Below, one piece after another: positions 52,974 through 53,263 of a stretch of DNA of 58,790 nucleotides. The position numbers and the translations under genes were made by a program. The notes beneath the pieces were generated by a model. That model was not told the origin of the DNA and ran no database searches. It saw nothing but the letters and a program-made list of their open reading frames with translations. Each line of letters begins with the position of its first letter. Within the stretch, counting starts at the first letter, position 1. The DNA is from Escherichia phage FS2B: the sequence record MW929182, one strand, 5' to 3'.

Positions 52974-53263
52974 ACACCCTCCAATTAAACATTTATATAA
53001 GACTTGCTTAGATAAAGATTCAATAAAATAGGGGGAGGGGACGAATCCTCCCTTATCCTATTAATTAATATTGCATGTAAGATCTAACAATCGGTTGCCT
53101 TTATAGGAATAAGCGTAAAGCCAATCCAGCACTAAACTCCCGCCCCCTTAGTGGGCTGGGTTATTAAAGGGTAACGCCCTTATGGGCTAGTTACATGAAT
53201 GTTAGTTTGATAGGAGATCTGAAGTCCTATCTCAAAGGACTCTCGTAAGAATCCTTCACGATA

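What the first reader, a model, noticed from the sequence alone, without database searches (positions are those of the whole stretch)
52974..53263. 290-nt ORF-free region rich in hairpins in the early arm
Between 52752..52973 and a small downstream ORF lies a stretch with several strong stem-loops (GGGAGG..CCTCCC, GCCC-TTAT-GGGC flanked by GTAAC/GTTAC, GATAGGA..TCCTATC) and no ORF. I tested it for a tRNA fold and could not build a cloverleaf, so it is more likely a structured regulatory RNA or a cluster of terminators/operators.
Basis: seen in the sequence. Interest (0 to 1): 0.35.

Follow-up and report, generated by a model that had tools for sequence, protein, structure and literature searches.

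The report
Conserved structured phage non-coding RNA
The ORF-free gap holds a ~237-base structured RNA element, read from the minus strand and ending in its own terminator hairpin, which is better conserved than the genes around it, is shared by three unrelated groups of E. coli/Salmonella phages, and matches no described RNA family.

Summary
The window is a phiEco32-like (Kuravirus) phage, and the gap lies between homologues of early genes phi32_101 and phi32_100, both on the minus strand. Window 53263→53027 (minus strand) is a discrete conserved unit. It starts at the base after the upstream stop codon and ends at a GC-rich hairpin followed by a U-tract. It is 97-99% identical in about 70 Kuravirus records whose flanking genes are mosaic. 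Diverged copies occur in Suseptimavirus, in Salmonella phage 7-11 relatives and, with a ~190-nt insertion, in N4-like Gamaleyavirus (G7C-like) phages. None was found in 5,426 E. coli genomes or in the plasmid collection.

Three helices are supported by compensatory changes. In the two 5' hairpins, 100% of 153 alignment cells pair on the minus-strand sense, against 86% on the reverse complement. A 15-nt motif (GUUAGNUCUUACAUG) and the 3' hairpin loop (UCGUCC) stay constant while the stems covary.

Rfam 15 and ARAGORN give no match, so it is not a tRNA or tmRNA. Operator, CsrA-sponge and anti-tmRNA ideas were tested and rejected.

Best reading: a new phage non-coding RNA family, most likely a stable RNA acting in trans, whose 3' hairpin also serves as a (leaky) terminator in Kuravirus. 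The function is inferred, not shown.

The parts
53027..53263 (-). Whole conserved RNA unit, about 237 nt. It begins at the base after the TAA stop of the upstream gene (stop at 53264-53266) and ends in the U-tract after the 3' hairpin.
   Evidence: The block of 97-99% identity in Kuravirus records is query 54-290 of 52974-53263. Similarity to relatives with different flanking genes begins at UAUCGUG and ends at CCUAUUU.
53234..53257 (-). H1: a 10-bp hairpin, GAAGGAUUCU-UACG-AGAGUCCUUU, with a conserved U.G wobble and a G.U closing pair.
   Evidence: All cells pair. Two pairs change on both sides (A-U to G-C). The U.G wobble is replaced by C-G or U-A in single variants. H1-like copies occur elsewhere in relatives.
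53209..53231 (-). H2: a 7-bp hairpin, GAUAGGA-CUUCAGAUC-UCCUAUC, with a 9-nt loop whose core CUU(C)AGAU is conserved.
   Evidence: Three of the 7 pairs change on both sides, and two more switch to wobble pairs in the 7-11 group (GUUGAGG/CCUUGAC).
53201..53205 (-). Invariant CUAAC, the proposed 5' strand of a long-range helix P3 that pairs with GUUAG at 53084-53088.
   Evidence: It is in the minimum-free-energy fold. Pairing probability is 0.8-0.98 in phiEco32-type and G7C-type copies, 0.57 in pSal-SNUABM-01 (UUAAC, giving a U.G pair) and near 0 in the IME267 and 7-11 types. The evidence is inconclusive.
53091..53200 (-). Variable central domain: H3 (53171-53194), H4 (53139-53160) and further small hairpins.
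   Evidence: Other hairpins replace these in the Suseptimavirus and 7-11 groups, and H4 is absent in some copies. The same H4 variants occur in both Kuravirus-like and G7C-like phages.
53072..53090 (-). Invariant motif UUGUUAG(A/G)UCUUACAUGC(A). The part 3' of GUUAG is predicted to be single-stranded.
   Evidence: Fourteen of the 15 core positions are identical in every distinct copy from all three phage groups. It occurs once in the window.
53027..53062 (-). 3' stem-loop. The outer stem is AAUAGG/CCUAUU, with a 5' bulge AUAA. The inner stem is GGGAGG/CCUCCC (53047-53052 with 53033-53038). The loop is AUUCGUCC.
   Evidence: The promoter/terminator scan calls it terminator-like. Folding gives -18.1 kcal/mol, z = -2.9. 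The inner stem pairs in all cells and has 2 compensatory pairs, GGGAGG/CCUCCC to AGGCGG/CCGCCU. The outer stem changes to UAGGG/CCCUA in 7-11. The loop sequence UCGUCC is conserved.
53022..53028 (-). U-tract (UUUUAUU) after the 3' stem-loop.
   Evidence: The tract is U-rich in Kuravirus and in the 7-11 group and degenerate (UUAUGAAC, UUACGGGC) in G7C-like phages.
52974..53021 (-). Spacer with the ribosome-binding site (GGAGGG) of the next gene. It is not part of the RNA unit.
   Evidence: It is conserved only within close Kuravirus relatives and is lost in the ES17/SU10 group. The consensus scan finds no promoter here.

Best explanation
Window 53263->53027 (minus strand) encodes a discrete, structured non-coding RNA of about 237 nt. 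It is transcribed as part of the leftward early operon of this phiEco32-like phage. The anatomy is as follows: two 5' hairpins (H1, H2); a variable central domain that may be closed by a CUAAC:GUUAG helix; an invariant, largely single-stranded motif (GUUAGNUCUUACAUG); and a bipartite 3' stem-loop with a conserved loop (UCGUCC). In Kuravirus and 7-11-like phages a U-tract follows the 3' stem-loop.

Shown: the unit is real, its helices are kept by compensatory substitution, the sense strand is the minus strand, the unit is under stronger constraint than its flanking genes, and it is a self-contained module found in three unrelated lytic phage groups and not in bacterial genomes.

Inferred: host RNA polymerase terminates, incompletely, at the 3' stem-loop. 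Together with cleavage near the upstream stop codon, this would release a stable small RNA protected by a hairpin at each end. That RNA would act in trans on a factor common to enterobacterial hosts, through the invariant motif (base pairing or protein binding) and the conserved 3' loop. Read-through transcripts would carry on into gene 100/99.
For: Identity of the phage and gene orientation. Conservation: the gap is 97-99% identical in about 70 Kuravirus records, while the same 801-nt neighbourhood is covered only 60-73% in many of them. A segment-by-segment comparison shows the element is always retained, while genes 100, 101 and 102 are often replaced.

Structure: RNAalifold recovers H1, H2 and the 3' stem. 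In H1 plus H2, 153 of 153 cells pair, 5 pairs change on both sides, 0 of 500 shuffles reach the observed score, and slid-partner controls pair in only 42-58% of cells. The 3' stem pairs in 71 of 71 cells with 2 covarying pairs, and all 36 distinct 3' modules keep the stem.

Strand: the reverse complement pairs in only 86.3% of cells, because four wobble positions become A.C mismatches. The 5' module folds at -19.3 kcal/mol in sense and -14.6 in antisense. The U-tract is on the minus strand only.

Autonomy: flanking genes differ between phiEco32, 7-11 and G7C, and the unit starts 0-9 nt after unrelated stop codons.

More than a terminator: the loop UCGUCC and the 15-nt motif stay constant while the stems covary. 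G7C-like copies keep the hairpin but lose the U-tract.

Distribution: phage-sized contigs only. There is no homologue of the element in 5,426 E. coli genomes (the only hit at E<=10 is one 31-nt, 87% chance-level match) and no match in the plasmid collection.

Not a known family: Rfam 15 at gathering and at E<=10, on this phage and on four relatives; ARAGORN. The genome papers on this phage group that I could read do not mention it.
Against: No transcript data were available, so neither a discrete RNA nor its ends are demonstrated. No conserved promoter precedes the unit, so a separate small RNA requires processing, which is assumed. The U-tract is interrupted (CCUAUUUUAUU) and is separated from the GC stem by the outer stem. 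No promoter was found for the roughly 20 early genes downstream, so termination must be partial. No target or partner was identified. Complementarity of the motif to host tmRNA and rRNAs is no better than background, and a genome-wide target search could not be run. The long-range helix P3 never varies and is predicted in only some lineages. The covarying sequences fall into a few clades, so the number of independent substitution events is small.
Confidence: 0.45

Rival explanations
1. The element acts only in cis on the early polycistronic transcript. The 3' hairpin would terminate or attenuate transcription, splitting early genes into two temporal sub-classes. H1 and H2 would act as processing or stability determinants, with no trans-acting function.
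For: The hairpin plus U-tract is on the transcribed strand. The unit abuts the upstream stop codon. The early arm has other terminator-like hairpins, 25 found against 11 expected. H1-like hairpins recur at other non-coding junctions in relatives.
Against: Terminators and stabiliser hairpins do not need an invariant 15-nt single-stranded motif or an invariant loop. G7C-like phages keep the whole module although the U-tract has decayed and the region is expected, from what is known of N4, to be transcribed by a phage RNA polymerase. The element moves between phage families independently of any flanking gene.
Confidence: 0.2
2. The element is a processive antitermination site of the nut or put type. 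The nascent RNA (the boxA-like UCUUACA motif plus a hairpin with a specific loop, or the H1-H2 pair) would modify host RNA polymerase, alone or with a phage protein and Nus factors. The polymerase would then read through this and later terminators of the long early/middle leftward operon.
For: Published work on 7-11 states that an antitermination strategy is likely and remains undefined, because the only validated early promoters sit at the genome end. SU10 and phiEco32 likewise have their early promoters near the right end. The invariant motif shares UCUUACA with lambda nutR boxA, CGCUCUUACACAU. A terminator lies inside the element and more lie downstream.
Against: The boxA core GCUCUU is not met: the motif reads GGUCUU or GAUCUU, and the differing position is the one variable base. 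The hairpin is not boxB-like, having a 6-bp stem and a 7-8-nt loop. A strong terminator-like hairpin at 55545-55522 lies upstream of the element. The module is equally conserved in N4-like G7C phages, where host polymerase is not expected to transcribe this region, and there it has no U-tract. The 7-mer match was noticed after many comparisons from memory.
Confidence: 0.12
3. The element is a tRNA-like or tmRNA-related decoy or processing signal. The outer and inner 3' stems (11-12 bp stacked) with a 7-8-nt UUCGUCC loop would mimic an acceptor/T-arm minihelix. H2 would resemble an anticodon arm. The RNA would bind or divert a tRNA-handling enzyme or an anticodon nuclease.
For: In G7C-like phages the module sits at the 5' edge of a ~1.9-kb CDS-free stretch full of T-arm-like motifs, a tRNA-Ala-like gene and a tmRNA-like tag. 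Phage 7-11 also has a tmRNA-like locus about 1.3 kb upstream. The stacked stem length and the loop UUCGUCC in pSal-SNUABM-01 resemble a T-arm. The H2 loop in IME267 reads UUCAGGU, which as I recall it is the anticodon loop of E. coli tRNA-Leu(CAG).
Against: ARAGORN and the Rfam tRNA and tmRNA models give nothing on the element. The loop has U where the T-loop needs A58. There is no CCA end. The H2 loop is 9 nt. Apart from an H1-like hairpin (E = 0.06), the element shows no similarity to the tmRNA-like loci.
Confidence: 0.1
4. The element works as DNA, for example as a replication origin, a set of operators or a recombination site, and the hairpins are incidental inverted repeats.
For: ATAGGA/TCCTAT occurs 4 times in 240 bp. 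The plus strand folds as well as the minus strand in a single-sequence fold.
Against: Four conserved wobble positions pair only on the minus-strand RNA: 100% of cells pair in sense against 86% in antisense. The ATAGGA words are helix arms that are replaced by GUUGAGG/CCUUGAC in 7-11. No iterons or AT-rich unwinding region were seen by eye (no repeat-finder was run). One-base indels and swaps of whole hairpins are tolerated in the centre.
Confidence: 0.05

Closest known systems
Operon-embedded or 3'-UTR-derived bacterial and phage small RNAs that end in an intrinsic terminator (for example CpxQ, SroC, the prophage sRNA DicF)
   Same: A non-coding unit directly after a stop codon. It has a conserved short single-stranded motif just 5' of a terminator hairpin and no promoter of its own, which implies release by processing plus termination.
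   Different: It is much longer and more structured (~237 nt, at least 5 helices). The invariant motif (15 nt) is longer than typical seeds. The terminator loop is also conserved. No chaperone, target or transcript is known. It is carried by strictly lytic phages of three lineages.
Intrinsic (Rho-independent) terminators
   Same: A GC-rich 6-bp stem extended by a second stem and followed by a U-rich tract on the transcribed strand, at -18 kcal/mol.
   Different: The loop sequence is conserved across deep divergence. The hairpin is retained without a U-tract in G7C-like phages. It is the 3' module of a larger conserved RNA.
Stable RNAs of unknown function in phage tRNA regions (T4 species 1 and 2, also called band C and D RNAs; from general knowledge, not compared here)
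   Same: Phage-encoded, non-tRNA structured RNAs, co-transcribed with early or tRNA regions, with function undefined.
   Different: BLAST against 50,697 phage records found the element only in Kuravirus-like, 7-11-like and G7C-like phages. In Kuravirus it is not adjacent to the single tRNA gene.
Lambda nut sites (boxA + boxB) and HK022 put RNAs
   Same: Located in a long early operon served by distant promoters. There is a short conserved linear motif (UCUUACA is shared with nutR boxA), a hairpin with a specific loop, and two adjacent 5' hairpins as in put.
   Different: The boxA core is not matched and the hairpin is not boxB-like. The element contains the terminator rather than preceding it. 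It is also present in N4-like phages that use their own polymerases.

Membership tests
tRNA | Cloverleaf with acceptor, D, anticodon and T arms, detectable by ARAGORN or Rfam RF00005 | tested here: not met
   ARAGORN finds only tRNA-Arg at 54553-54628. Rfam at E<=10 over 52700-53500 gives no tRNA hit. The same holds in relatives.
tmRNA (one-piece or permuted) | A tRNA-like domain with a canonical T-loop and CCA-ready acceptor stem, plus a tag reading frame ending in a hydrophobic-Ala-Ala sequence | tested here: not met
   There is no Rfam or ARAGORN tmRNA signal in the element or in window 44000-58790. A 15-mer resembling the start of the tag would encode only A-T-D-C-stop. There is no similarity to the tmRNA-like loci of 7-11 and St11Ph5 except an H1-like hairpin.
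Any Rfam 15 family | Covariance-model score at or above the gathering threshold | tested here: not met
   The best hit is CssrA at 16.5 bits against a threshold of 93, on the other strand. Nothing is seen on four diverged homologues.
Intrinsic terminator | GC-rich stem-loop on the transcribed strand | tested here: met
   GGGAGG-AUUCGUCC-CCUCCC at 53052-53033, minus strand, with 5 of 6 pairs G-C. Folding energy is -18.1 kcal/mol including the outer stem.
Intrinsic terminator | U-tract directly after the stem | tested here: inconclusive
   The window has CCUAUUUUAUU, which passes the scan. If the outer stem forms, UUUAUU follows it. The tract is U-rich in Kuravirus and 7-11 copies and degenerate in G7C-like copies.
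Intrinsic terminator | Causes transcript release by RNA polymerase | not testable with these tools
   This needs Term-seq or in vitro transcription.
Hfq/ProQ-type trans-acting sRNA | A discrete stable transcript with defined ends | not testable with these tools
   No RNA data were available. No promoter-like site lies upstream on the minus strand.
Hfq/ProQ-type trans-acting sRNA | A conserved accessible seed complementary to a target RNA | tested here: inconclusive
   The invariant 15-nt motif is present. No near-perfect complement long enough for BLAST to report at E<=10 exists in 5,426 E. coli genomes. tmRNA and the rRNAs score no better than background. mRNA targets could not be scanned.
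Lambda-type nut site | boxA core (C/U)GCUCUU(U)A | tested here: not met
   The motif reads G(G/A)UCUUACA. It shares UCUUACA with nutR, but the GC of the core is GG or GA.
Lambda-type nut site | boxB: a 5-bp stem with a GNRA-like pentaloop, a few nucleotides after boxA | tested here: not met
   The hairpin has a 6-bp stem and a 7-8-nt loop (A/C)(U/C)UCGUCC. It lies 12-20 nt downstream at variable spacing.
HK022 put RNA | Two specific stem-loops acting in cis on host RNA polymerase | not tested
   No put reference sequence or model was available. H1 and H2 are adjacent hairpins 2 nt apart, but that is only a resemblance.
CsrB/RsmY-type CsrA sponge | Multiple conserved GGA motifs in loops | tested here: not met
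   The four AGGA words in the window lie mostly in stems, and the homologous positions in 7-11 do not read GGA.

The most novel reading that the evidence does not exclude
This is a previously undescribed, horizontally exchanged non-coding RNA module. Unrelated lytic coliphages (Gordonclarkvirinae, 7-11-like Grimontviridae, N4-like Gamaleyavirus) would carry it to manipulate a conserved enterobacterial factor. It could act as an RNA-based host-takeover or counter-defence effector through its invariant 15-nt motif and conserved 3' loop. It may be functionally linked to the tRNA-like and tmRNA-like RNAs that two of these phage groups also encode.
Probability: 0.3. Interest if true: 0.8.

Novelty: new member of a known kind. 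Interest (0 to 1): 0.6.

Why it matters
Non-coding RNAs of strictly lytic phages are barely charted. This one is a self-contained RNA module under stronger constraint than the protein genes beside it, and it has been exchanged, with its internal variants, between phage families that share nothing else at this locus. That pattern is typical of accessory functions directed at the host. If it acts in trans, it would give an experimentally tractable RNA effector in phiEco32, a well-studied model of phage transcription. If it acts in cis, it could be the missing element in the unexplained long-range read-through of the early operons of phiEco32 and 7-11. Either way it deserves an RNA family model and annotation in roughly 140 deposited genomes where the region is now blank or mis-called as a small ORF.

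Tried and rejected
1. tRNA or tmRNA identity: ARAGORN and Rfam are negative.
2. Operators: ATAGGA is locally enriched, but these words are helix arms that covary away in 7-11.
3. CsrA sponge: the GGA motifs are not conserved.
4. Pairing of the invariant motif with host tmRNA, which from memory looked like 11 of 12 pairs. With the real ssrA sequence the duplex energy (-15.8 to -16.5 kcal/mol) is matched by 10-26% of random 363-nt E. coli windows. The 16S, 23S and 5S rRNAs are also unremarkable.
5. Homology with the tmRNA-like loci of 7-11 and St11Ph5, suggested by a 15-mer hit inside the element: local alignment finds only an H1-like hairpin at E = 0.06.
6. gp36 promoter (tAATGTAtA): only the ATGTA core is present on the plus strand, and the published gp36 promoters lie elsewhere.
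7. A sigma-70 promoter in the spacer for gene 100: none passes the scan. By eye the best candidate is TTGAAT-N18-TATATA, which is weak.
8. A shared flanking gene that might explain the conservation: the 7-11 downstream protein is unrelated to the window's gene 99, and Pfam gives nothing for the neighbours.
9. Wider distribution: a pattern for H1 found only chance coding matches outside the known groups. There is no homologue of the element in the E. coli genomes or the plasmid collection.
10. The two key phiEco32 papers (PMC2587145, PMC3275717) are not held. Literature searches for small or non-coding RNAs in this phage group found nothing relevant.
11. Long-range helix P3: it never varies and is predicted in only some lineages, so it is left as inconclusive.

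Full report
**What the window is.** BLAST of 52700-53500 against deposited phage genomes shows the window is a phiEco32-like podovirus (Kuravirus, Gordonclarkvirinae). It is 96% identical to phage Paul and 95% to phiEco32. All annotated genes around the finding are on the minus strand. The gap 52974-53263 corresponds to phiEco32 64742-65030, between phi32_101 (window 53264-53395) and phi32_100 (window 52752-52973). No feature is annotated there in nearly all records. One record (4E8) carries a software-predicted 'terminator|promoter'. The region belongs to the early leftward arm, as described for SU10 and phiEco32.

**Check of the observation.** No ORF of 25 aa or more lies inside the gap. ARAGORN and Rfam confirm there is no tRNA. 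Rfam gives nothing above noise even at E<=10. Single-sequence folding is only moderately better than shuffles: z = -2.4 on the minus strand and -3.1 on the plus strand. On its own, that would not show that the hairpins matter.

**Conservation.**
- The 290-nt gap matches 142 phage records, and 71 of them are 95% identical or better.
- In many of the same genomes the flanking genes are replaced. The 801-nt neighbourhood is covered only 60-73%, in 2-3 pieces.
- The block that is always kept is query 54-290, which is window 53027-53263.
- A segment-by-segment comparison shows the element present wherever any homology exists. It is 94-99% identical in Kuravirus, while genes 102, 101 and 100 are 70-95% identical or absent.
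- The unit begins at the base after the upstream stop codon. In relatives with unrelated upstream genes it begins 0-9 nt after their stop codons. It ends at the U-tract after the GGGAGG/CCUCCC hairpin.

**Diverged homologues.** There are three further groups.
- Suseptimavirus (IME267, EK010) and phage NC-B carry it at about 77% identity.
- Salmonella phage 7-11, SE131 and pSal-SNUABM-01 (Grimontviridae) were found through an exact-motif scan of IMG/VR and a second BLAST.
- N4-like Gamaleyavirus phages (G7C, St11Ph5, Bp4, PhAPEC7, pSb-1, Bas96) belong to a different family, Schitoviridae. There the module is 400-434 nt because about 190 nt are inserted after the first two hairpins. It sits right after gp47.2, at the start of a ~1.9-kb CDS-free stretch.

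The flanking genes are unrelated between these groups. The alternative versions of the central hairpin H4 (phiEco32 type, IME267 type, or none) occur in both Kuravirus-like and G7C-like phages. One G7C-context contig has a Kuravirus-type 3' module. This points to exchange of the module between the families.

A stringent 28-base pattern found the element only on phage-sized contigs in metagenomes. In 185,579 species genomes it found one 8-kb contig, from a MAG labelled Peptococcaceae. BLAST found no homologue of the element in 5,426 complete E. coli genomes (the only hit at E<=10 is one 31-nt, 87% chance-level match in ydiL) and no match in the plasmid collection. The element occurs once in the window.

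**Structure and strand.** RNAalifold on nine diverse copies recovers a 10-bp hairpin (H1), a 7-bp hairpin (H2) and the 3' stem.
- On nine distinct 5' modules, all 153 cells of H1 and H2 form standard pairs. Five pairs change on both sides. No shuffle out of 500 reaches the observed covariation score. Sliding the partners by 1-3 columns drops pairing to 42-58%.
- H1 carries a conserved U.G wobble that becomes C-G or U-A in single variants, and a G.U/A-U closing pair. H2 of the 7-11 group (GUUGAGG/CCUUGAC) differs from the window (GAUAGGA/UCCUAUC) at five of seven pairs, and all seven still pair.
- On the reverse complement the same helices pair in only 86.3% of cells, because four wobble positions become A.C mismatches. 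The 5' module folds at -19.3 kcal/mol in sense and -14.6 in antisense. The functional strand is therefore the minus strand, the strand of the surrounding genes.
- The 3' stem pairs in 71 of 71 cells with two compensatory pairs, GGGAGG/CCUCCC to AGGCGG/CCGCCU. An outer stem also covaries, from AAUAGG/CCUAUU to UAGGG/CCCUA or AUAGGG/UCCUAU.
- The centre is variable. H3 and H4 are replaced by other hairpins or deleted.
- A long-range helix CUAAC:GUUAG is in the minimum-free-energy fold. It has high pairing probability in some lineages but not in others, and it never varies. I leave it open.

**What stays constant.** The 15-nt motif GUUAGNUCUUACAUG just 5' of the 3' stem-loop is identical in every distinct copy of all groups, apart from the one N position. 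So are the loop core UCGUCC of the 3' hairpin (one variant, UCGCCC, in phiEco32), an AUAA-containing bulge, and the H2 loop core CUU(C)AGAU. A plain terminator does not need a fixed loop. The G7C-like copies keep the hairpin although their U-tract has decayed to UUAUGAAC or UUACGGGC. The 3' stem-loop is therefore part of the functional RNA. In Kuravirus and 7-11, where host polymerase transcribes the early genes, it also looks like an intrinsic terminator. It is the second-ranked terminator-like site in 42000-58790.

**Mechanism.** These points are shown: a self-contained, minus-strand, structured RNA element under purifying selection that moves between phage lineages. These points are inferred: host polymerase coming from the distant early promoters transcribes the unit. 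A fraction of transcripts ends at the 3' hairpin, and the rest continue into genes 100/99, for which no promoter was found. Cleavage near the upstream stop codon leaves an RNA capped by hairpins at both ends. The RNA then acts in trans through the invariant motif and loop on something common to E. coli, Shigella, Salmonella and Klebsiella. I prefer a trans role for two reasons. The module is kept intact in phages that, by what is known of N4, use different polymerases for this region. And it travels without any neighbouring gene. I rate this reading at about 0.45. The narrower statement 'functional structured RNA element on the minus strand' I would put near 0.9.

**Rivals.**
- A purely cis role in termination, processing or stability explains the position and the U-tract, but not the invariant motif and loop or the G7C-like copies.
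- A nut- or put-like antitermination site is attractive because the 7-11 authors state that an antitermination mechanism is likely and undefined, and because the motif shares UCUUACA with lambda nutR boxA. However, the boxA core is not met, the hairpin is not boxB-like, an apparent terminator lies upstream of the element, and the N4-like context argues against dependence on host polymerase.
- A tRNA-like decoy is suggested by the neighbourhood in G7C-like phages and by the minihelix-like 3' end. No tRNA or tmRNA model scores, and the loop lacks the T-loop A58.
- A DNA-level role is contradicted by the strand-specific wobble pairs.

**Ideas tested and dropped.** These were the operator, CsrA-sponge, anti-tmRNA and 'degenerate tmRNA' ideas.

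**Novelty.** No Rfam 15 family matches the window copy or four diverged copies. GenBank records leave the region blank or call spurious small ORFs. The genome and transcription papers on this phage group that I could read do not mention it. I class it as a new member of a known kind (phage-encoded structured small RNAs) with unknown function.

**Limits.** There are no expression data. The covarying sequences fall into about four clades, so the independent events are few. No whole-genome target search was possible. No full-length covariance model was built or searched against a collection.

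Noticed in passing
L059 345-1055 (Salmonella phage 7-11, HM997019 reverse complement); L005 about 2233-2501 minus strand (St11Ph5): Both 7-11 and the G7C-like phages carry a tmRNA-like stretch that ARAGORN does not call. The Rfam tmRNA_permuted hits are weak (29.6-31 bits). The tag-like frames are ANDNAFRVAA* in 7-11 and ANDDVVLMAA* in St11Ph5, preceded by AUAAAU-GCA and followed by T-arm-like GGUUCGA motifs. The two loci are homologous to each other (86 nt, 75.6% identity, E = 3e-8). The Kuravirus window has no such locus.
   Followed up: partly
L004/L005/L006/L012-L014, about 1000-2900 (G7C-like phages, between gp47.2 and gp48 or the virion RNA polymerase gene): This ~1.9-kb CDS-free stretch contains at least six T-arm-like GGTTCGAATCC motifs. 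ARAGORN recognises only 0-3 tRNAs per phage (Ala-CGC, Cys-ACA, Ile-AAT). One Rfam tRNA hit in Bas96 has a 24-nt insertion in the anticodon region. This may be an array of unusual tRNA-like RNAs.
   Followed up: partly
L009, L045, L070, L073 just 3' of the element; L059 about 645-672: Extra copies of an H1-like hairpin (..AUUCU-UCCG-AGAGU.. and AAGAGUUCU-CACG-AGAGUUCUU) occur at other non-coding junctions of relatives. This suggests the UUCU/AGAG helix with its U.G wobble is a reusable recognition module.
   Followed up: partly
window 55522-55545 (-) and 50542-50559 (-): These are two further strong terminator-like hairpins in the early arm (AGAGGCUGCC-UUCG-GGCGGCCUUU + GUUGUUUU, and GACUCUU-UUCG-GAGAGUC + CUUUUUU). 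Terminator-like sites in 42000-58790 are about twice as frequent as in shuffles (25 against 11).
   Followed up: no
window 52439-52762 (-): The phi32_99 homologue is annotated 'D5-like transcriptional regulator'. It looks like two tandem helix-turn-helix or Myb-like repeats and gives a Pfam Sigma70_r4_2 hit (31 bits). In many relatives it is the first gene after the element.
   Followed up: partly
window 51432-52430 and 53804-54025 (-): A run of ORFs of about 73-84 aa have similar N-terminal halves by eye (MK..K....V.L..L..G..F...). They look like a tandem paralogous family of small early proteins.
   Followed up: no
L064 (CALKAR010000070.1, 8.2-kb contig of an 'uncultured Peptococcaceae' MAG): This contig carries a Kuravirus-type copy of the element that differs from the window's copy at only a base or two. 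It is almost certainly a coliphage fragment binned into the wrong genome.
   Followed up: no
window 54553-54628 (-): This is tRNA-Arg(UCU), the only tRNA in the window, about 1.3 kb upstream of the element on the same strand. In phage Paul an HNH endonuclease gene is inserted next to it.
   Followed up: no
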